DNA of 22,141 nucleotides, taken from IMG/VR virus record IMGVR_UViG_2675903433_000026, positions 1 through 22,141 of that record. The stretch is one strand, 5' to 3'. The DNA is from a virus. Lineage: Duplodnaviria; Heunggongvirae; Uroviricota; Caudoviricetes. Shown here piece after piece: positions 1,444 to 14,456 of the stretch; the first letter of the stretch is position 1; every line of letters starts with the position of its first letter. Made by a program: the position numbers and the translations under genes. The notes under the pieces are model-generated. The model was not told the DNA's origin, did no database searches, and worked only from the letters and a program-made list of their open reading frames with translations.

Positions 1444-2807
1444 TAATAATCCTCTTGCCAGTCAGCACCGGCATAGTTATCAAACCGTGAGTATTGGCCG
1501 TTAAAAGCCAATCTCACCGTGCCAATTGGGCCATTTCGTTGCTTTCCGATAATTACCTCGGCAATGCCCTTCATTTCGCTATCCGGGTGATAAACTTCGT
1601 CGCGATACAGAAACATGATCAGGTCTGCGTCCTGCTCAATTGCTCCTGATTCACGTAAATCTGAATTTACCGGTCGTTTGTCCGCACGCTGTTCAAGCGA
1701 TCGATTAAGTTGTGACAATGCCACCACCGGTACTTGTAATTCCTTCGCCAACGCCTTCAGTGAGCGAGAAATCTCGGCAATTTCCAGCGTTCGGTTATCT
1801 TGCAGCTCGGGGACGCGCATAAGTTGCAGGTAGTCGATCATAATCATGCTCAAACCACCATTTTCTTTATAAACACGACGAGCGCGGGAACGAAGCTCTG
1901 TAGGTGTCAGGGCGCTTGAGTCATCAATAAAAATATTCTGCTTGTCCAACAGAATACCCATTGCGCCAGAAACCCGCGCCCAATCATCGTCGTTAAGTTG
2001 CCCCGTTCTAATACGAGTCTGATCAACGCGTGCAAGAGAAGCCAGTGAGCGCATCATCAGCTGGTGGCTCGGCATCTCAAGGCTAAAAACCAATACGGGC
2101 TTATCGTTACGAACTGCGGCATTTTCGACGAGATTCATCGCAAACGTGGTCTTCCCCATAGATGGGCGGGCGGCGACAATGATGAGATCGGACGGCTGAA
2201 GCCCCGCCGTCTTCTTATTGAGATCGGTAAATCCCGTATCAAGCCCCGTTACACCATCATGCGGTCGCTGAAACAACTCTTCTATGCGAGATACCGTTGC
2301 ATCGAGAATGCTGGCGATATCTTTTGGACCACTACCGCTCTTTTGTCGTTTTTCAGCTATTTCAAAAACGCGGCGCTCGGCCATATCCAGCAATTCATTG
2401 CTGCCCCTGCCATCCTGCGCATATCCAGCTTCGGCTATTTCATTTGCGACGGAAATCATTTCACGAACAACCGCGCGTTCACGAACGATATCCGCATAAG
2501 CACAAATATTTGCCGCGCTGGGCGTGTTCTTTGACATCTCCGCAAGGTACGCAAAACCACCGGCGCGTTCTAATTTACCGTTCTGTTCAAGTGCTTCAGC
2601 AAGTGTTATCAAATCAATCGGTTTGCCATGACTTAATAACCTCTCCATCTCACTGAAAATTTCACGATGAGCACTGGTATAAAAATCATCAGCAACTATA
2701 CGATCTGCAACTTCATCCCAGCGGCAGTTATCAAGCATTAAGCCACCAAGCACAGCTTGTTCTGCACTAAGGGAATTTGGCATGGATTCAAGAGGGGATG
2801 CAGACAT
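1443..2807 (-). CDS. ban: Replicative DNA helicase, DnaB family (Ban-like, 454 aa from the ATG at 2807)
   Basis: Walker A ARPSMGKTTFAMN, DnaB N-terminal domain (AEQAVLGGLMLD...), conserved RecA-like core. GGTGGAG Shine-Dalgarno before the ATG at 2807; the ORF track extends to a TTG at 2822. Confidence 0.9.
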   Translation of the reverse strand: MSASPLESMPNSLSAEQAVLGGLMLDNCRWDEVADRIVADDFYTSAHREIFSEMERLLSHGKPIDLITLAEALEQNGKLERAGGFAYLAEMSKNTPSAANICAYADIVRERAVVREMISVANEIAEAGYAQDGRGSNELLDMAERRVFEIAEKRQKSGSGPKDIASILDATVSRIEELFQRPHDGVTGLDTGFTDLNKKTAGLQPSDLIIVAARPSMGKTTFAMNLVENAAVRNDKPVLVFSLEMPSHQLMMRSLASLARVDQTRIRTGQLNDDDWARVSGAMGILLDKQNIFIDDSSALTPTELRSRARRVYKENGGLSMIMIDYLQLMRVPELQDNRTLEIAEISRSLKALAKELQVPVVALSQLNRSLEQRADKRPVNSDLRESGAIEQDADLIMFLYRDEVYHPDSEMKGIAEVIIGKQRNGPIGTVRLAFNGQYSRFDNYAGADWQEDY

Positions 2808-3087
2808 TAGCACTCCACCCAAGCGTGCTGAATGTCAGATATAATCGGCATACTCAAATCACTCCTAACGATATGAGTCATCACCAGAAAATCAGGATTA
2901 ATTCGCCGGACTCTTCCCGGCTGTCACACCGAATCGCCAGGATGGTGAATCCGCAGTCCGACGCTATGAACGGGGCTTGCACATTCCGGCTACCTGGTTT
3001 GTTGCCTGAGCTAGGGGAAAGGTTACCCCTTTAACGTCACCAGACCGCTAACGACGCATGTGCCAGACGCCGTGTTACAACCAAATA

Positions 3088-3163
3088 TGGTGGCCCCTAC
3101 CGGACTTGAACCGGTGACCGTGCGATTATGAGTCGCCAGCTCTAACCACTGAGCTAAAGGGCC
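3088..3163 (-). tRNA. tRNA with CAU anticodon, most similar in pattern to the lysidine-type tRNA-Ile2 (ileX-like); tRNA-Met not excluded
   Basis: 76-nt cloverleaf read on the minus strand: acceptor GGCCCTT/AGGGGCC, anticodon arm GGCGACTCATAATCGC, T-loop TTCAAGT, encoded CCA. Confidence 0.85.
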
Positions 3164-3190
3164 GGATTACTGCCAATTTTGCTTACGCTT

Positions 3191-4018
3191 TTATTTCACC
3201 GGAACAAACGGAACAGCGGTATTACTGGTCATATACTTCGGTAATGTACCGTTCCATTTGTTGATCGCTTCCAAGTCCATAACACCTGGGTTCTGGCGCA
3301 GAGCTTCACCACGTAAACGAATGGCATCAGCTTCGGCCTGGGCTTTTGTGCGAATAGCATCAGCCTGTCCGGCAGCTTCCGCGCGCAGCATGTTGGCCTC
3401 TGCTTCACGTTGTTTGACCTCTTGCTCGCGTTGCAGGGTTTTTTGGTTTGCCGTGACTTTGGCGTTAATACTGTCAATAACTGTTGGCGGGTATTCTGGC
3501 TTACCTACATAAGAGAGGCTCATCACCTGAATGCCGATTGGCGTCATTTCTTCCTGAATGTCTTTAAGGGCTGCATCAAGCAATTCAGATTTGCCACCGT
3601 CGATAAATTTGTCGGTGGTCATTTTGCTGGCTAATCGGTTCAGAGCATCTGCAACCTTCTGGCGTAGATCGGTATCAGTAATATCATCTACACCTTTGCG
3701 ATAGGTCTGAAATACCGTTGTGACTTTTGCTGGATCAACCTTGTAGGCTACGCCGATGTGGTAACCAATGGTTGTTCCGTCGCTCATCTGGAAGCTGAAC
3801 GGCTCATCGTATGTCTTCATTTGCTTAAAGGTCGGGAAGATATAAACTTCAGTATTCAAGCCTGTCCAGTAGCGACCAACGCCAACTACTTCACCGATAC
3901 CTTTATCATCCCCCAGCTTATTTACTTTGATCCCTACGTTACCTGGCTCTACCCGATCGCATCCGGTCAGACATAAAGAACCCAAAATAATCGCTGCACT
4001 AATCAACGTTTTTTTCAT
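3191..4018 (-). CDS. plp: Lipoprotein, SPFH/band-7-like (plp-like, 275 aa)
   Basis: Signal peptide with lipobox LTGC (MKKTLISAAIILGSLCLTGC); C-terminal coiled-coil Ala/Glu-rich region; AGGAAA Shine-Dalgarno. Gene symbol is by position and similarity to the P1 arrangement. Confidence 0.7.
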   Translation of the reverse strand: MKKTLISAAIILGSLCLTGCDRVEPGNVGIKVNKLGDDKGIGEVVGVGRYWTGLNTEVYIFPTFKQMKTYDEPFSFQMSDGTTIGYHIGVAYKVDPAKVTTVFQTYRKGVDDITDTDLRQKVADALNRLASKMTTDKFIDGGKSELLDAALKDIQEEMTPIGIQVMSLSYVGKPEYPPTVIDSINAKVTANQKTLQREQEVKQREAEANMLRAEAAGQADAIRTKAQAEADAIRLRGEALRQNPGVMDLEAINKWNGTLPKYMTSNTAVPFVPVK

Positions 4019-4235
4019 TAATTAATTTCCTGGTTTTTTCACGAAAAAAGACTACTGCGAAAGCCGGGTAAATGAGCGCGAGAAGGACTCCCAACAATAC
4101 AAGTATTGTGCTGTTAGATGAGATCATATTTGGCAAAAGCCAAACATACAGAACCAGTGACACAATCAAACAGAGGACGGCATAAATATATAACCGCACC
4201 CATAGCGTTCGACATTTGTTCGGATTGTTCTGCAT
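3999..4235 (-). CDS. Small two-helix membrane protein (upl-like, 78 aa)
   Basis: Two hydrophobic stretches (IYAVLCLIVSLVLYVWLL and ILVLLGVLLALIYPAFAVVFF); GGAG Shine-Dalgarno; overlaps the plp start by 20 nt. Confidence 0.5.
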   Translation of the reverse strand: MQNNPNKCRTLWVRLYIYAVLCLIVSLVLYVWLLPNMISSNSTILVLLGVLLALIYPAFAVVFFREKTRKLINEKNVD

Positions 4236-4464
4236 CCTCTCACTCCATTATTTAACGAATAAAAAAGCTGCGGTGCCGGGTTCCTCCCGGTGTCCTTTGG
4301 CTGGTTATCCACCGTGGACGTGGAAACAAGGAGAAATAATGGACAGATATAACCATTTCCCCGCGTGCGCTTAGCCGCATTCACCGCAACGGAAAGAGCA
4401 TTCTTGGTGGACCTGTAGATTGGGATATGAACCCGTTACAGGAGAATGCTCTTACCTGTTATGT

Positions 4465-4540
4465 TGGTGCCGATTAACGGGATCGAACCGCTGACCATTC
4501 GCTTACAAAGCGACTGCTCTACCAACTGAGCTAAATCGGC
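4465..4540 (-). tRNA. tRNA-Thr (anticodon UGU)
   Basis: 76-nt cloverleaf: acceptor GCCGATT/AATCGGC, anticodon loop TTTGTAA, T-loop TTCGATC, encoded CCA. Confidence 0.85.
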
Positions 4541-4544
4541 AATG

Positions 4545-4631
4545 TGGTGGGGAGTGATGGAGTCGAACCACCCGAGTCGCAATGACAGTAGATTTACAGT
4601 CTACCCCGCTACCCCTACGGACTAACTCCCC
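4545..4631 (-). tRNA. Type II tRNA with GUA anticodon (tRNA-Tyr-like) with a long variable arm and atypical D arm
   Basis: 87 nt: acceptor GGGGAGT/ACTCCCC, anticodon stem GTAGA/TCTAC with loop CTGTAAA, long variable stem-loop (GTC ATTGC GAC), T-loop TTCGACT, encoded CCA. The D-arm pairing is non-canonical, so identity is less certain. Confidence 0.6.
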
Positions 4632-4636
4632 TAAAG

Positions 4637-4711
4637 TGGCGATGGTGGGTGGATTCGAACTACCGACCAGTTGGTTAACAGCCAACTGCTCTACCGCTGA
4701 GCTACACCATC
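4637..4711 (-). tRNA. tRNA-Asn (anticodon GUU)
   Basis: 75 nt: acceptor GATGGTG/CACCATC, anticodon stem GTTGG/CCAAC with loop CTGTTAA, T-loop TTCGAAT, encoded CCA. Confidence 0.85.
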
Positions 4712-5379: not shown

Positions 5380-5396
5380 AAATTTATTAGAGCAAT
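5380..5396 (-). promoter_or_regulatory. C1-repressor-type operator (17/17 match) followed by a TAATAT -10-like hexamer, at the head of the tRNA-upl-plp-tRNA-ban operon
   Basis: Minus strand reads ATTGCTCTAATAAATTT then attagtg TAATAT; the operator overlaps the last codons and stop of the methyltransferase gene. Confidence 0.7.
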
Positions 5397-8300
5397 ATAG
5401 CTATAACGTCATGAGCAACACCTCGAGTGTCTCCCTTACAAGACACAGAACGTCTGGCAAAAAGAGGTTCCACTCTGAAGCCACTGTCATGATAAAGCTC
5501 TCTGATGTTTGGCGCGCCACTGTTAGTAATGAGAACTTTCGCACCTCGACGATGAGCATCCGTCAACAGAGACACCAGGCGTTTTTGCTCTTCAAACTTA
5601 AAGTCATGACCGGAATAGTTCGTGAATCCCTCTGTATTTGGAAGCGGTTCATACGGCGGATCGCAAAAGATGACATCTCCTTCTCCGGCAGCTTCAATCA
5701 CCGCTGCAAAATCACCGCATACAAACTCAGACCGCCCTTCCGCACCGAGGAAGGCTTCCATCTCCTGTAATGGGAAATACGGAGTTTTATACTTCCCATA
5801 ACCGACATTGAACTCACCGGCCTGGTTGTAACGCGTCAATCCGTTAAAACAATGTCGGTTCAGGAACAAAAACGCCGCTGCGCGATGTAAATCATCATAG
5901 ACTTGTTTGTTAAACGCATTCCGTACTGCCAGGTATCCTTCCTGTGTGTTGTAGTCCTGGAAGAAACGATGTGCCAGAGTGATAAGTGAATGCGCCTCGC
6001 GTTGCAGAGTCTTGTAAAAGTTAATCAGGTCAGCATTCACATCATTTAGCAGATTTTCCTGGTATCCGGCATTCATGAAGACAGCTCCGCCACCAACGAA
6101 AGGTTCAATCAGGCGCTTCCCTTCTGGCAAATAGCGAAAGATTTGTTCCAGAACACCAAATTTTCCACCAGCCCATTTGAATATGGACCGTTCGAATTCT
6201 GCCGCTGGTTTAACTTTTCGCTCTTTTGTTTCACTCCCTTCCTTCTGCCGACATGCAGCCTTGGCAATCCGATCGCCAATCCAGCGCATTACTGGTATCG
6301 CCATACTATTGCCGATCGCTTTGTAACGCGGTCCGTCAGCTGCAAGCATCGCGGCCTCTTCTTCGCTTAAATCTGGATAGTGATTGCGAAGATATGCCAG
6401 TTCATCTGAATTAACTTTTTTACGCTTTTCCGTCGGGATCAACGTATGCCCATCAGGAAAACCTTGCAGCCTTTCACATTCGACAGGGGTAAGACGGCGG
6501 ACAGCTACTTCTGCGTTTCTTACTTCATAGCAAACAGCTGTTGGATTTTTAGCCATTAGAGATGGTGAAGTATTCTTAGTTGCAGCATGTTGTGTACCGC
6601 TCATACGCTCAGGAAAAGCCAATGTAACAAGATGCTCATGGCTTTCTTGCTCACGTGCCCGCAATGTACCATGCCCTTCTGACCAAAAACCTGCTCCTGT
6701 GCTGCTAAAAACGGCAAGGTCAGTGGCATCTTTAAAATCTCTTGCCTTTACTGTCGATGCGGTTTCATCGTCAATATATTCCCCAAATGCTGCCATCCTG
6801 AAAGCGTTTACGGCTTTCGTCGATTTCATACTGGGTGGCATGTCAGCGTGTAGGCATGGATTTAGGCTTTCGCCACTGATTGCAGCGCCATTTGCAATAA
6901 TGGCGGAAGCGATTTCCTTCTTTTTTCGGCTCGGCGCAATATTCCGGCGCACGCCTTCGAACTCAAAAAGTACCGTTGCGGGATCGAGGTCTGTTCGAGC
7001 ACTTGCGACAACAAACACGCGTCGGCGTCGTTGTGCCACTCCGAAGTATTGGGCATCAAGGATTCTCCAGGCCACCTTTCGCTGCGGTCCATAAATACAA
7101 CCACACTGCGGCCACTTTGGAGCATGGCAACCGGTTTTGCCATCCCACCGCCAGAACGCGTTACTTTTTCCTGATTCAGGTCGATCACCTGGTTCAAATG
7201 GCGCATCTTCTCCAGCCAATCCGGCAAGGAAACATCCGAAGGCGTTATCTGCCGATGACAAGACTCCTGGGACATTTTCCCAGACGATAACGGATGGTTT
7301 GAGAAATGACTCAGCCCGTTTGTCGTCAACTGCATTTGCAAGCTCCACATACTTTAAAGTTAGCGCGCCACGCTCATCATCAAGCCCACCACGTAATCCC
7401 GCGATACTGAATGCCTGACAGTTATGGACCACCGCACCATTGAGGATATAGGAATGATCACCTTCGACTTCTATGTTGTATACAGTATCTAGGCCTACCG
7501 ATTTAAACTCTTTGACTGTTCGTAAAAGCATTCCATGAGCCAATCTTGATTTACGTGACAATTTCTGCGGGCAGATTGTTACCTGATAATAATTCCGTTG
7601 ATTTACCACGCGATCCTCGATCACTTTTTTGGGCTCAACTTCAATAAAGCTGACCGAAGAAACATAACCACAAGTCTGTGACAACCCCGCAACGCCCCAA
7701 GCAAGCGCAGAACTAACACTATTAATTCTAAATCCCGCTTTACCACTTGGTGTCCCATCAGTATCAAGATAGCCTTGTAAAAACACATGACGCAATGGAT
7801 GCGACATCACCCATGCAGGGATACGCTTAGCATGGCTTAACTCGCCAAAATGTTCATTAAGCCAATTGGCATAACACGTATCATTCAAGGTTACTTTGAT
7901 GCTCCCTCGGATTTCGCTTGCCACGGAAAATATGTTTTCTGGTATGCGGCAATGAAACTTTCTCAATTTCTGGCAATTTATGCCAAAAACAACCGCCTTC
8001 TTAGATTTACCTCTCCATCTCCTAATATATCCATCGCCAACATAAGCGCCCGCAAGATACATAGCCTGTTCTTCAGACAAGAACCGAGAACAAATATCTG
8101 GAAATGCAATATTGAAATTAGTTAGAGCGCACCATTGATATCCCGGCATATCACATGCTGCTCGCCATTCCGGTTCAGACAACAACTCTCTCTTAAAATA
8201 TGTGCCATTTTTCCGGGTGTTTTGGGCTTTCCACCGAACAGCCAGGAAGGGATGGTCATTGGTTGTTCTTATACCTAAAGGCTGCCCAACGGCATTAAGT

Positions 8301-8674
8301 AACCCCGTATTAGCTATTTTTGAACCAACTCTTTTTACTTGTTGTAACCGCCCGAGATGACTGACTACGTAATCGCCAGGGCAAACATCTTCTATTGGTT
8401 TATAACCATTTTTACAAAGAACCATATGCCCCGCGGTAAAACATGGTGTCCCTCCCACCAGCACATCAGGGGCTTCAATTTCTCCAGCCTGGACTTTTTG
8501 GGCGAGTTTTGTCATGTCGCCAAGGTTGGCGACATGGGGCCAGCGGAGCGCAAGAACGGCCGATGGAAAAGGCTCGATTTCAGCAAACCACGCCGGACGC
8601 ATACCCAACGGTTCCCAGGCAATACTCGCGGCTTCAATTCCACTGCAAACAGATCCATAGCACAGCTCTTTCAC
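5387..8674 (-). CDS. dmt: Bifunctional DNA methyltransferase: N-terminal C5-cytosine MTase domain interrupted by an intein, C-terminal Dam-like N6-adenine MTase domain (1095-aa precursor; 754 aa after intein removal)
   Basis: C5-MTase motifs GGTP|CQAFSIAG (motif IV, split by the insertion), VWENVPG (ENV), QRRRRVF. C-terminal Dam-type motifs [10 protein letters not shown] (AdoMet binding) and DPPY. GGAGAGG Shine-Dalgarno. Confidence 0.9.
7421..8443 (-). mobile_element. Intein (341 aa) with LAGLIDADG homing-endonuclease domain, inserted before the catalytic Cys of the C5-MTase PC motif
   Basis: Starts CFTAGHMVL (block A, Cys1), block B TTNDH, two LAGLIDADG motifs ([11 protein letters not shown] and [11 protein letters not shown]), C-terminal [21 protein letters not shown] followed by the +1 Cys of CQAFS. 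Junction codons checked on the sequence (Pro TGG-rc at 8444-8446, Cys 8441-8443, His-Asn 7421-7426, +1 Cys 7418-7420). Confidence 0.85.
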
Positions 8675-13646: not shown

Positions 13647-13982
13647 ATGCAAGAAGAGAAACAACACTACCTCTACGTTCTGGTGCCGGAGAACGGAGAT
13701 ACTTTTAAAATCGGCATTTCATGTGGTCCATTGGCACGGTTTAAAGGGCTACAAGTGAGTCCCGATTTTGCGCTTTCACGGGTCTATCGTGGTACGCGTT
13801 TGGCAATGGTTAATCTTGAGCGGGCTTTACACGCAACCTTTTTCCCCTGGAATGCGCCGTGGGAGAAAAGCGCCGGTGGCGGGCATACTGAATGGTTTAC
13901 ACGAGAGTGTCTTGATAAGGTTTTGGCTCATATCGAATATCTAAATGATATGTGGGGAGGGATTCTCGAGCGCATTAAGTAG
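13647..13982 (+). CDS. T5orf172-type (GIY-YIG-related) domain protein (111 aa)
   Basis: Pattern YLYVLVPENGDTFKIGIS ... LERALHATFF ... HTEWF matches the T5orf172 domain signature; ends at TAG 13980-13982. Confidence 0.6.
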   Translation: MQEEKQHYLYVLVPENGDTFKIGISCGPLARFKGLQVSPDFALSRVYRGTRLAMVNLERALHATFFPWNAPWEKSAGGGHTEWFTRECLDKVLAHIEYLNDMWGGILERIK

Positions 13983-14051
13983 AATGATTTACTTCAGCGT
14001 CCAGTAGATGCTGCTCGCTCTTTCGAAAAAGAACTGGATGTTACTTCTATC

Positions 14052-14456
14052 GTGACTTTCAAAGATGACGCAGGAATGAGGGACGTGGCTTATGTCTCCA
14101 TATCTGGCTATGAACCGGACGCGATCCGCGCTCAATGTGAATTGCTGAAAGCAATGTTTATGCTTCGGACTAAATATCCCTGGGAGACAGGGCGGGTGTG
14201 CTTCCCTATGGAAGAGTTAACCGCCACCATTGATTCTCAGCTTTACCACGATAATCCAGAGAAGTTTTTTAGCCTTTTAGCCGGTAATGGGCTTAACTGT
14301 GTGTCCGGGCTGGGGCGAAGTAGAATCCAACATGCCTCGCTCTTCGGTCCCTTCTTTTACGATCGACACGGGTACTTTGAGGCTGAACTTCCGGCGCTTA
14401 CGCGTGCTATAGATACTATCGATTTCGAACGATTATTCGCTGCTCTTAGCAAATAA
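14052..14456 (+). CDS. Hypothetical protein (134 aa from GTG; first in-frame ATG at 14076), in the same frame as the upstream T5orf172 ORF
   Basis: Open frame continues immediately after the TAG at 13980; no good ribosome-binding site before the GTG or ATG; followed by a strong terminator. Confidence 0.4.
   Translation: MTFKDDAGMRDVAYVSISGYEPDAIRAQCELLKAMFMLRTKYPWETGRVCFPMEELTATIDSQLYHDNPEKFFSLLAGNGLNCVSGLGRSRIQHASLFGPFFYDRHGYFEAELPALTRAIDTIDFERLFAALSK

What the first reader, a model, noticed from the sequence alone, without database searches (positions are those of the whole stretch)
7418..8446. Intein with LAGLIDADG homing endonuclease inserted at the catalytic Pro-Cys motif of a phage-plasmid Dcm/Dam fusion methyltransferase
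The C5-MTase motif IV is split as GGTP | [341 aa] | CQAFSIAG. The insert has the full intein signature: Cys1 block A (CFTAGHMVL), block B (TTNDH), two LAGLIDADG motifs, and a terminal HN followed by +1 Cys. That +1 Cys is also the catalytic nucleophile of the cytosine methyltransferase, so cytosine methylation would depend on protein splicing, while the C-terminal Dam domain might work in the precursor. Removing the insert leaves 754 aa, which equals the length I recall for P1 Dmt (recalled, not checked). An intein in a phage anti-restriction/modification enzyme is unusual, and the embedded endonuclease could home into intein-free dmt alleles.
Basis: partly seen in the sequence, partly recalled or inferred. 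Interest (0 to 1): 0.8.

Follow-up and report, generated by a model that had tools for sequence, protein, structure and literature searches.

The report
Intein splitting P1-type Dmt methyltransferase
A 341-residue self-splicing protein element (an intein) carrying a homing endonuclease interrupts the catalytic Pro-Cys motif of the Dmt DNA methyltransferase of a P1-like E. coli phage-plasmid; it is a clean and apparently undescribed example of a known kind of selfish element, found in about 3% of complete E. coli genomes.

Summary
The minus-strand ORF 5387..8674 (1095 aa) is a P1 Dmt homologue: a C5-cytosine MTase fused to a Dam-type MTase. Residues 78-418 (window 7421..8443) are an exact 1023-nt in-frame insertion between the Pro and Cys codons of motif IV. 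Reference P1 dmt lacks it and encodes 754 aa.

The insert has the class-1 intein sequence signatures I checked: Cys1, TxxH, terminal HN, +1 Cys. It also has two LAGLIDADG motifs with conserved Asp residues. Its AlphaFold model (pLDDT 92) matches PI-SceI and other endonuclease-bearing inteins.

It sits in 133 of 498 dmt-bearing plasmids and in 152 of 5426 complete E. coli genomes. It is far less diverged than the surrounding gene (7/1023 versus 88/985 differences between E. coli and E. albertii alleles). Intein-plus alleles share a flanking haplotype. This points to recent horizontal spread, as homing would produce.

It belongs to a large allelic family: 122 of 135 cluster representatives have a P|C…N|C junction in C5 MTases.

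Splicing, cleavage and Dmt's C5 activity remain untested. Phage methylase inteins are already known, so this is a new member of a known kind. Public annotation does not mention an intein, and no paper found describes it.

The parts
5387..8674 (-). dmt precursor ORF (1095 aa plus stop; GTG start): C5-cytosine MTase domain interrupted by the intein, fused to a C-terminal Dam-type N6-adenine MTase
   Evidence: About 98% nt identity to P1/RCS47 dmt. Exact protein is WP_053904618.1, named only 'Dam family ... methyltransferase'.
8444..8674 (-). N-extein (aa 1-77), ending GGTP, the first half of C5-MTase motif IV; includes a variant motif I ([10 protein letters not shown])
7421..8443 (-). Intein, 341 aa / 1023 nt (aa 78-418): Hint splicing domain split by a LAGLIDADG endonuclease domain
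   Evidence: Clean indel versus P1. Pfam Hint_2 and LAGLIDADG_3. AF2 pLDDT 92.1. Foldseek top hits are PI-SceI, TliVMA, PI-PfuI and PI-PkoII.
8417..8443 (-). Intein block [10 protein letters not shown], with Cys1 as the N-terminal splicing nucleophile
   Evidence: Cys1 is present in 135/135 family representatives and invariant in A1/A3.
8252..8266 (-). Intein block B, TTNDH (TxxH: Thr61 and His64 of the intein)
   Evidence: T61 and H64 are invariant in A1. The His is invariant and the Thr nearly invariant (>=90%) across 149 sequences; both are invariant across the 50-sequence subset.
8027..8059 (-). First LAGLIDADG motif, [11 protein letters not shown] (candidate catalytic Asp137 of the intein)
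7751..7783 (-). Second LAGLIDADG motif, [11 protein letters not shown] (candidate catalytic Asp229 of the intein)
   Evidence: Pfam LAGLIDADG_3 covers aa 298-361. D306/G307 are nearly invariant.
7421..7483 (-). Intein blocks [23 protein letters not shown], ending in His340-Asn341
   Evidence: Aligns to the C-terminus of the Spl DnaX mini-intein. Terminal Asn in 135/135 and 'HN' in 123/135 representatives.
7418..7420 (-). +1 Cys codon (Cys419 of the precursor, Cys78 of spliced Dmt): the splice acceptor and also the motif IV Cys that is the catalytic nucleophile in C5 MTases
   Evidence: The spliced sequence aligns with the M.HhaI PCQAFS motif. +1 Cys in 131/135 representatives.
6290..7420 (-). 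Remainder of the C5-MTase domain in the C-extein: CQAFSIAG (IV), WENVPG (VI), QRRRRVF (VIII), [15 protein letters not shown] (IX), GNSMAIPV (X)
5477..6175 (-). Dam-type (D12 class) N6-adenine MTase domain, with DPPY at 5651-5662
   Evidence: Pfam MethyltransfD12, E 2e-56

Best explanation
The segment is a genuine class-1 intein with an embedded two-motif LAGLIDADG homing endonuclease. It is inserted between Pro77 and Cys78 of the motif IV 'PCQ' active site of the C5-cytosine methyltransferase half of a P1-family Dmt protein. Proposed mechanism, inferred from canonical class-1 intein chemistry: the 1095-aa precursor is translated. Cys1 of the intein performs an N-S acyl shift at the Pro-Cys bond. 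The thioester is passed to the +1 Cys. Asn341 cyclises and releases the 341-aa intein. An S-N shift then recreates the Pro-Cys peptide bond, giving the 754-aa Dmt with an intact PCQAFS motif. Because the +1 Cys corresponds to the catalytic nucleophile of C5 MTases, and the intein separates motifs I and IV-N from the rest, cytosine methylation can only come from the spliced product. The downstream Dam domain is a separate fold and may not need splicing. The released intein is predicted to cut intein-free dmt alleles around ...GGGGGTACGCCT|TGTCAGGCATTCAG... when two P1-like elements meet in one cell. Repair from the intein-plus copy then copies in the intein together with flanking extein markers (homing). 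What is shown here: the anatomy, the fold, residue conservation, allele polymorphism and the population signature. What is inferred: splicing, cleavage and homing themselves.
For: (1) There is a clean 1023-nt in-frame indel exactly at the Pro|Cys codons versus P1 dmt (754 aa) and five other intein-free alleles. (2) Pfam gives Hint_2 (28.5 bits) and LAGLIDADG_3 (29.9 bits) inside a DNA_methylase + MethyltransfD12 protein. (3) Blocks F/G align with the Spl DnaX mini-intein, and the endonuclease region aligns with PI-PkoII. (4) The AF2 model has pLDDT 92.1 and pTM 0.89. Its Foldseek top hits are all endonuclease-bearing inteins (PI-SceI 3e-17, TliVMA, PhoVMA, PI-PfuI, PI-PkoII), followed by free LAGLIDADG enzymes. 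(5) Splicing and endonuclease residues are conserved in homologues of 25-55% identity: Cys1 135/135, terminal Asn 135/135, HN 123/135, +1 Cys 131/135. The block B His is invariant and the Thr is invariant or nearly so. The two LAGLIDADG Asp-Gly pairs are mostly nearly invariant (>=90%). (6) The spliced motif aligns with M.HhaI PCQAFS. (7) Distribution is patchy: 133 of 498 dmt-bearing PLSDB plasmids and 152 of 493 dmt-bearing complete E. coli genomes. The intein occurs on both 'long' and 'short' dmt backgrounds and in E. coli, Salmonella, E. albertii and E. fergusonii. (8) Divergence is discordant: E. coli versus E. albertii shows 7/1023 differences in the intein and 88/985 in the Dam part, Fisher p = 1e-20. 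The low-divergence tract is the intein plus about 550 nt downstream. (9) All 7 intein-plus alleles share synonymous flank markers (ACA CCA before the junction, GGA after), while five of the 6 intein-free alleles have ACG CCT before it and four have GGC after; EcE2863 and Ealb167 carry some intein-plus markers. (10) The Hint parts show only synonymous polymorphism, 0 nonsynonymous and 5 synonymous. (11) GC is 42.8% versus 49.3%.
Against: There is no experimental evidence of splicing or DNA cleavage for this or any close relative in the searched literature. Pfam Hint_2 is only just above its cut-off, and Intein_splicing is below its cut-off for this protein (18 versus 35.8 bits). All 10 nonsynonymous polymorphisms lie in the endonuclease domain (aa 114-284), against 6 synonymous there (Fisher p = 0.035). 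This could mean relaxed constraint on the nuclease. The low-divergence tract and shared flanks could also come from ordinary homologous recombination between P1-like plasmids plus clonal spread. From my own knowledge of engineered intein systems, a -1 Pro is usually unfavourable for the first splicing step; here it is the native context in 123/135 relatives. C5 activity of Dmt is only 'perhaps' in the P1 record.
Confidence: 0.85

Rival explanations
1. The intein is splicing-competent, but its endonuclease is inactive or decaying. The element then no longer homes. It persists because precise loss is rare, and it spreads only by general homologous recombination and by clonal or horizontal spread of the P1-like plasmids that carry it.
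For: All 10 nonsynonymous polymorphisms among 7 alleles fall in the endonuclease domain (10 nonsynonymous to 6 synonymous), against 0 to 5 in the Hint parts (Fisher p = 0.035). P1-like plasmids are visibly mosaic: dmt has long and short central regions, and allele EcE2863 combines a window-like C5 domain with a 68%-identical Dam domain. Recombination alone could therefore move the intein.
Against: Both LAGLIDADG acidic residues and the surrounding motifs are conserved here and are mostly nearly invariant in the wider family. No intein-plus allele examined has a stop or frameshift. 153 E. coli copies are all at least 99% identical, while 31% occupancy persists across diverged backbones and host species. 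That pattern fits an element still invading better than a fossil.
Confidence: 0.12
2. The insertion does not splice. It is a tolerated domain insertion that kills the C5-MTase half, while the essential Dam half keeps working in the 1095-aa protein.
For: The P1 record describes cytosine methylation only as 'perhaps'. The known requirement is for Dam methylation (PMC12707154). The C5 half might therefore be dispensable. The -1 residue is Pro.
Against: Splice-junction residues (Cys1, TxxH, HN, +1 Cys) are conserved over a family with only 25-55% identity, and the host C5 motifs stay intact. The Hint parts show only synonymous polymorphism. C5 motifs IV, VI, VIII, IX and X are intact in all 7 intein-plus alleles examined.
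Confidence: 0.03
3. The insert is an assembly or annotation artefact, or a chance resemblance.
For: None found.
Against: The same 1023-nt segment occurs at the same position in 133 plasmid records, 153 places in complete E. coli genomes and 5 phage records. Foldseek E-values reach 3e-17.
Confidence: 0

Closest known systems
Intein-free Dmt of bacteriophage P1 (AAQ14041.1; AF234172 / NC_005856)
   Same: It is the same gene in the same position, between hrdC/rdgC and the ban operator/tRNA region. The extein is about 98% identical at nt level overall, falling to about 93-96% next to the insertion site, and the spliced length of 754 aa is identical. Both have the C5-MTase plus Dam fusion.
   Different: P1 reads ...VWGTPCQAFS... 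with no insert. It also carries different synonymous markers next to the insertion site (ACG CCT | ... GGC versus ACA CCA | ... GGA).
DNA-methylase inteins of actinobacteriophages (mycobacteriophage DNMT-1/2, PMC5050341; methylase intein of PMC9957025; C-5 methylase listed in bioRxiv 10.1101/2025.01.02.630785)
   Same: These are class-1 inteins with LAGLIDADG endonucleases in phage DNA methyltransferases, patchily distributed and horizontally transferred. Cluster-F mycobacteriophage methylase inteins are detectable relatives at about 27% identity over the full length.
   Different: The described mycobacteriophage hosts are N6_N4 MTases. The present element lies in a C5 MTase at the catalytic PC dipeptide, in an enterobacterial phage-plasmid, and in a bifunctional Dcm-Dam fusion. 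The insertion site in the actinophage C-5 methylases was not given in the text I could read.
PI-SceI (S. cerevisiae VMA1 intein) and archaeal PI-PfuI / PI-PkoII / TliVMA inteins
   Same: They share the architecture and predicted fold, a Hint domain interrupted by a two-motif LAGLIDADG nuclease. They share Cys1, the terminal HN and the +1 Cys chemistry.
   Different: Sequence identity is only 11-17%. The present intein is smaller (341 versus about 454-537 aa) and has a different host protein and target.
Allelic, undescribed inteins at the same PC site of other C5 MTases, for example Mannheimia phage vB_MhS_587AP2 / M. haemolytica (P0011), E. coli jumbo phages A4/TH47/ph0011 and Propionibacterium phage B22
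   Same: The closest relatives (40-57% identity) have the same GGTPC|...HN|CQ junction in the same C5-MTase family, and P0027 is also a Dcm-Dam fusion. Overall 122 of 135 representatives have P|C...N|C.
   Different: They are 26-57% identical and sit in other hosts and elements. Their records annotate them only as methyltransferase or hypothetical protein.

Membership tests
Intein (class 1 protein-splicing element, Hint fold) | In-frame insertion at a conserved site of a host protein, absent from orthologues | tested here: met
   There is a clean 1023-nt gap at Pro|Cys versus P1 and five other intein-free dmt alleles.
Intein (class 1 protein-splicing element, Hint fold) | Nucleophile (Cys/Ser) at intein position 1 and block B TxxH | tested here: met
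   Cys1 and T61-N-D-H64 are present. Both T61 and H64 are invariant in A1/A3; in the 149-sequence alignment the His is invariant and the Thr nearly invariant. Cys1 is present in 135/135 representatives.
Intein (class 1 protein-splicing element, Hint fold) | C-terminal His-Asn followed by +1 Cys/Ser/Thr | tested here: met
   The sequence reads ...VVHN|C. Terminal Asn is in 135/135, HN in 123/135 and +1 Cys in 131/135 representatives.
Intein (class 1 protein-splicing element, Hint fold) | Hint fold | tested here: met
   Pfam Hint_2 scores 28.5 bits against a cut-off of 28.4. The AF2 model has pLDDT 92.1. Foldseek matches solved inteins at E 3e-17 to 3e-9. Pfam Intein_splicing is below its cut-off for this protein but matches 30 of 50 relatives.
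Intein (class 1 protein-splicing element, Hint fold) | Demonstrated protein splicing (precursor converted to ligated exteins plus free intein) | not testable with these tools
   This needs expression with Western blot or mass spectrometry.
LAGLIDADG homing endonuclease (intein-embedded, two-motif) | Two LAGLIDADG motifs with conserved acidic residues, and the LAGLIDADG fold | tested here: met
   The motifs are [11 protein letters not shown] and [11 protein letters not shown]. The Asp-Gly pairs are largely conserved across the family: D306, G215 and G307 are >=90% in both large alignments, and D214 is >=90% in the 149-sequence alignment only. Pfam LAGLIDADG_3 scores 29.9 bits against 22.5. Foldseek hits include I-SceI and I-DmoI.
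LAGLIDADG homing endonuclease (intein-embedded, two-motif) | Site-specific cleavage of the intein-free allele | not testable with these tools
   The predicted target spans GGGGGTACGCCT|TGTCAGGCATTCAG. A cleavage assay is needed.
LAGLIDADG homing endonuclease (intein-embedded, two-motif) | Population signature of mobility: patchy presence, intein younger than host gene, co-converted flanks | tested here: met
   Occupancy is 27-31%. Differences are 7/1023 versus 88/985, p = 1e-20. Intein-plus alleles share a flank haplotype. This signature is indirect and does not separate homing from ordinary recombination.
P1 Dmt (bifunctional C5-cytosine / N6-adenine DNA methyltransferase) | Collinear homology to P1 dmt, the same neighbours, and both MTase domains | tested here: met
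   Both extein pieces are 98.1% identical at nt level to P1 dmt. The neighbours are rdgC/hrdC upstream and the tRNA/ban region downstream. Pfam finds DNA_methylase and MethyltransfD12.
P1 Dmt (bifunctional C5-cytosine / N6-adenine DNA methyltransferase) | Demonstrated cytosine-5 methylation by the N-terminal half | not testable with these tools
   The P1 record says only 'perhaps at C5 cytosine'. Motifs IV, VI, VIII, IX and X are present and motif I is a variant.
C5-MTase motif IV (PCQ) as the insertion site | The flanking GGTP and CQAFS are the two halves of one motif IV whose Cys is the catalytic nucleophile | tested here: met
   The spliced sequence [12 protein letters not shown] aligns with M.HhaI AGFPCQAFSISG. 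The nucleophile role of that Cys is established knowledge for M.HhaI (Cys81).

The most novel reading that the evidence does not exclude
The intein may be more than a passenger. Its endonuclease could act as an interference weapon between competing P1-like phage-plasmids, by cutting intein-free rivals during co-infection or superinfection of a lysogen. Its splicing, with Cys1 and the +1 catalytic Cys flanked by a normally unfavourable -1 Pro, could also be slow or conditional (for example redox-sensitive). In that case cytosine methylation by Dmt would be delayed relative to the Dam activity of the same polypeptide.
Probability: 0.15. Interest if true: 0.7.

Novelty: new member of a known kind. 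Interest (0 to 1): 0.5.

Why it matters
1. It places a natural, apparently intact intein in ordinary E. coli, Salmonella and E. albertii mobile elements. It is present in 152 of 5426 complete E. coli genomes and about 30% of dmt alleles, on relatives of the model phage P1. A record labelled phage P1 (OP279344.1) already carries it. Homing between phage-plasmids could therefore be measured directly in a standard genetic system.

2. The splice acceptor corresponds to the catalytic cysteine of C5 MTases. The two methyltransferase activities of one polypeptide could therefore mature differently.

3. Public annotation ('Dam family site-specific DNA-(adenine-N6)-methyltransferase') hides the intein, the endonuclease and the C5 domain.

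4. The wider family of more than 120 sequence clusters at the PC dipeptide marks motif IV of C5 MTases as a major intein insertion site. I found no description of this site in the searchable literature.

5. The endonuclease is a candidate new rare-cutting enzyme whose target lies in a conserved coding motif.

Tried and rejected
1. A global MAFFT alignment of 13 dmt alleles misplaced the intein gap at the 5' end. I replaced it with separate alignments of N-extein, intein and C-extein.

2. The 149-sequence alignment A2 was too large to export or to scan against Pfam. I used a 50-sequence subsample and a phmmer domain table on the stored proteins instead.

3. I used all ten literature searches: intein with Dmt, P1, RCS47, P1-like, cytosine-5, cytosine methyltransferase and DNA methylase. 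None returned a paper describing this intein. Hits that held both words were coincidental.

4. Attempts to open the RCS47 paper and the Gilcrease and Casjens plasmid-prophage paper by DOI or PMC id failed because they are not held. Those two papers remain unchecked.

5. I considered that the insert might be a non-intein Hint or 'bacterial intein-like' domain. I rejected this because it has the terminal HN plus +1 Cys, sits at a clean indel in a conserved motif, and matches true inteins structurally.

6. I considered using dN/dS of the C5 domain between intein-plus alleles as a test of post-insertion selection. I rejected it because the divergence may predate a recent intein arrival.
Full report
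**What is in the sequence**

The window holds a 3288-nt minus-strand ORF, 5387..8674 (GTG start, 1095 aa). Pfam finds four domains:
- a C5-cytosine DNA methylase (PF00145, E 2e-29, in three stretches);
- a D12-class N6-adenine methyltransferase at aa 834-1066 (E 2e-56);
- a Hint domain at aa 77-126;
- a LAGLIDADG_3 domain at aa 298-361.

The protein reads ...DVLVGGTP|CFTAGHMVL...AVVHN|CQAFSIAG... The segment between the bars is aa 78-418, 341 residues, window 7421..8443. Removing it leaves 754 aa. The segment has 42.8% GC against 49.3% for the rest of the gene.

**Comparison with intein-free alleles**

The gene is the dmt gene of P1-like phage-plasmids. Both extein pieces are 98.1% identical to reference P1 dmt (AF234172). 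P1 dmt is 2265 nt, or 754 aa. It is annotated as a bifunctional methyltransferase that methylates GATC adenine 'and perhaps' C5 cytosine.

The nucleotide alignment shows one clean 1023-nt gap in P1, exactly between the Pro codon and the TGT Cys codon of ...GGT ACG CCT|TGT CAG GCA.... Five further intein-free alleles give the same picture.

With the insert removed, [12 protein letters not shown] aligns with AGFPCQAFSISG of M.HhaI. This is motif IV, whose cysteine is the catalytic nucleophile (established knowledge). The two flanks are therefore the two halves of one motif. The +1 Cys of the insert corresponds to the active-site Cys of C5 MTases.

Motifs VI (WENVPG), VIII (QRRRRVF), IX and X are intact downstream.

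**Is the insert an intein with a homing endonuclease?**

The sequence signatures are present:
- Cys1 in block A;
- T61-x-x-H64 in block B;
- block [23 protein letters not shown], ending in His-Asn;
- a +1 Cys;
- two LAGLIDADG motifs, [11 protein letters not shown] and [11 protein letters not shown], with acidic residues Asp137 and Asp229.

By sequence, the C-terminal blocks align with the Spl DnaX mini-intein, and the central part aligns with the intein endonuclease PI-PkoII.

An AlphaFold2 model built on 11 homologues has mean pLDDT 92.1 and pTM 0.89. Its sixteen best Foldseek matches in the PDB are all endonuclease-bearing inteins: PI-SceI at E 3e-17, then TliVMA, PhoVMA, PI-PfuI and PI-PkoII. 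Free LAGLIDADG enzymes such as I-SceI and I-DmoI follow.

**The wider family**

A full HMMER scan of 1.84 billion cluster representatives gave 4462 hits at E<=1e-3 and 188 at E<=1e-30. Of the 148 best, 135 cover the intein end to end. Among those 135:
- 135 begin with Cys;
- 135 end with Asn, and 123 end with His-Asn;
- 131 are followed by Cys;
- 123 are preceded by Pro;
- 122 have the full P|C...N|C junction;
- 116 continue 'CQx'.

In a sample of 50 (the window protein plus 49 representatives), 44 contain Pfam DNA_methylase and all 50 contain Hint_2. In the 149- and 50-sequence alignments, the -1 Pro, Cys1, the block B Thr and His, the terminal Asn and the +1 Cys are invariant or nearly so. 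Most residues of the two LAGLIDADG Asp-Gly pairs are nearly invariant as well.

The window's element is thus one member of a large family of allelic inteins occupying the PC dipeptide of C5 methyltransferases. One relative at 57% identity (P0027) is also a Dcm-Dam fusion.

Related inteins sit in the methylases of these phages:
- Mannheimia phage 587AP2 (47.7% identity);
- Propionibacterium phage B22;
- E. coli jumbo phages A4, TH47 and ph0011;
- Pseudomonas phage Lana;
- cluster-F mycobacteriophages, at about 27% identity.

**Population evidence for mobility**

The intein DNA is found in 133 PLSDB plasmids from E. coli, Salmonella, E. albertii, E. fergusonii and Shigella, out of 498 that carry dmt. 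It is found in 152 of 5426 complete E. coli genomes, out of 493 with dmt. Every E. coli copy is at least 99% identical. Five phage records hold it: RCS47, vB_EcoM-Ro157c2YLVW, and one record labelled P1 (OP279344.1).

It occurs on two dmt backgrounds that differ in the central region of the C5 domain, with C-exteins of 2034 and 1788 nt.

Between the window and an E. albertii allele there are 7 differences in the 1023-nt intein. The last 1000 nt of the gene have 88 differences in 985 aligned positions (Fisher p = 1e-20). The low-divergence tract covers the intein and about 550 nt downstream.

All seven intein-plus alleles share synonymous markers at the junction: ACA CCA before it and GGA after it. 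Five of the six intein-free alleles have ACG CCT before it, and four have GGC after it; EcE2863 and Ealb167 carry some intein-plus markers. In these 13 alleles the downstream haplotype over about 130 nt also tracks intein presence, with one exception described below.

Among the seven intein copies there are 11 synonymous and 10 nonsynonymous variable sites. The Hint parts have 0 nonsynonymous and 5 synonymous. The endonuclease domain has 10 and 6 (Fisher p = 0.035).

These data show recent horizontal movement of the intein with adjacent extein sequence, and strong constraint on the splicing domain. They fit homing with co-conversion. They do not exclude movement by ordinary recombination, and the nuclease domain may be under weaker constraint.

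**Mechanism proposed**

This part is inferred from canonical class-1 intein chemistry and LAGLIDADG biology:
1. The 1095-aa precursor is made.
2. Cys1 attacks the Pro77-Cys78 bond.
3. The acyl group moves to the +1 Cys.
4. Asn341 cyclises and frees the intein.
5. The Pro-Cys peptide bond of motif IV is re-formed.

Only the spliced 754-aa protein can have a functional C5 active site. The Dam domain lies about 400 residues downstream of the splice site in a separate fold, so it may work before splicing.

The free intein would cut intein-free dmt near GGGGGTACGCCT|TGTCAGGCATTCAG and be copied in during repair.

From my own knowledge, a -1 Pro is usually unfavourable in engineered intein fusions. 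It is the native context for 123 of 135 relatives, so these inteins presumably cope with it. It leaves open slow or conditional splicing.

**Comparison with what is known, and novelty**

Inteins typically sit in active-site motifs of nucleic-acid enzymes. Inteins in phage DNA methylases are documented:
- mycobacteriophage DNMT-1/2, which are N6_N4 enzymes (PMC5050341);
- an actinophage methylase (PMC9957025);
- a 2025 survey that lists C-5 methylases among hosts described as previously reported to contain inteins (bioRxiv 10.1101/2025.01.02.630785).

Ten full-text searches found no paper describing an intein in P1-family Dmt or at the PC motif. Two relevant subscription papers could not be opened.

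Public names for this exact protein (WP_053904618.1) and its cluster mention only a Dam-family methyltransferase.

I therefore file it as a new member of a known kind. It is solid and probably undescribed, and it sits in relatives of a model phage, but it is not mechanistically surprising.

**Context**

The window is identical in length to the one contig on record for this protein, 22141 nt. It matches P1-like plasmids at about 99% over 99% of its length. Gene order is ban/dnaB, tRNAs, dmt, rdgC/hrdC, uhr, then the repA-parAB region.

Noticed in passing
locus L012 (NZ_AP018804.1 plasmid pE2863-2), dmt at 384-2672: This intein-free dmt allele is a mosaic. Its C5-MTase part is nearly identical to the window's (at most 1 difference per 100 nt over about 1100 nt after the insertion site). 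Its junction is intein-plus-like (GGA ACA CCT|TGT ... GGA). Its Dam domain is only about 68% identical. It could be an empty-site ancestor of the intein-plus haplotype or a precise intein loss.
   Followed up: partly
locus L003 (OP279344.1, 'Escherichia phage P1 isolate del res del mod'), dmt at 1501-4542: A record labelled phage P1 carries the intein (99.8% nt identity) on a 'short' dmt background (1013 aa) identical in pattern to a Salmonella plasmid allele. The reference P1 genomes lack the intein. A laboratory-handled intein-plus P1-type phage therefore seems to exist.
   Followed up: partly
window about 6100-6900 (-), central part of the C5-MTase domain: dmt alleles come in at least two forms that differ in the region between motifs VIII and IX: C-extein 2034 nt versus 1788 nt, only 80-85% identical there, with several indels. 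Other lengths (2424- and 2589-nt matches) appear in PLSDB. In C5 MTases this region normally holds the target-recognition domain, so P1-like plasmids may differ in cytosine-methylation specificity.
   Followed up: no
window 4545-4631 (-): A tRNA-Tyr (GTA) gene lies between tRNA-Thr (4465-4540) and tRNA-Asn (4637-4711). In reference P1 and RCS47 the Thr and Asn genes are directly adjacent with no Tyr gene between them.
   Followed up: no
window 13647-14456 (+): Between repA and parA, the near-identical plasmid NZ_CP013030.1 has an intact 270-aa 'GIY-YIG nuclease family protein'. In the window the same stretch is split into two ORFs (13647-13982 and 14052-14456), so it is possibly a pseudogene here.
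   Followed up: no
protein P0011 (Mannheimia haemolytica, 578 contigs) and Mannheimia phage vB_MhS_587AP2 (KP137435.1, 27587-28606): The allelic intein (47.7% identity) in Mannheimia is followed by only about 20 residues (CQSDKGGTVK...) in the 439-aa protein. The phage record annotates two separate CDS under the match. The C-extein may be frameshifted or the gene split there.
   Followed up: no
NZ_CP070875.1 (E. fergusonii plasmid), 106022-106097: Only the last 76 nt of the intein (query 948-1023) match here, with no annotated gene. This is probably a truncated or rearranged dmt.
   Followed up: no
window 8444-8505 (-), last ~60 nt of the N-extein: The window's N-extein carries a different haplotype just upstream of the intein ([10 protein letters not shown] versus VLAGEIESPD). 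Five of the six other intein-plus alleles examined lack it; EalbRM+ shares only the last ~15 nt before the junction. The protein-level haplotype is shared with an intein-free E. albertii allele. This implies a recombination breakpoint within a few tens of nt of the insertion site.
   Followed up: partly
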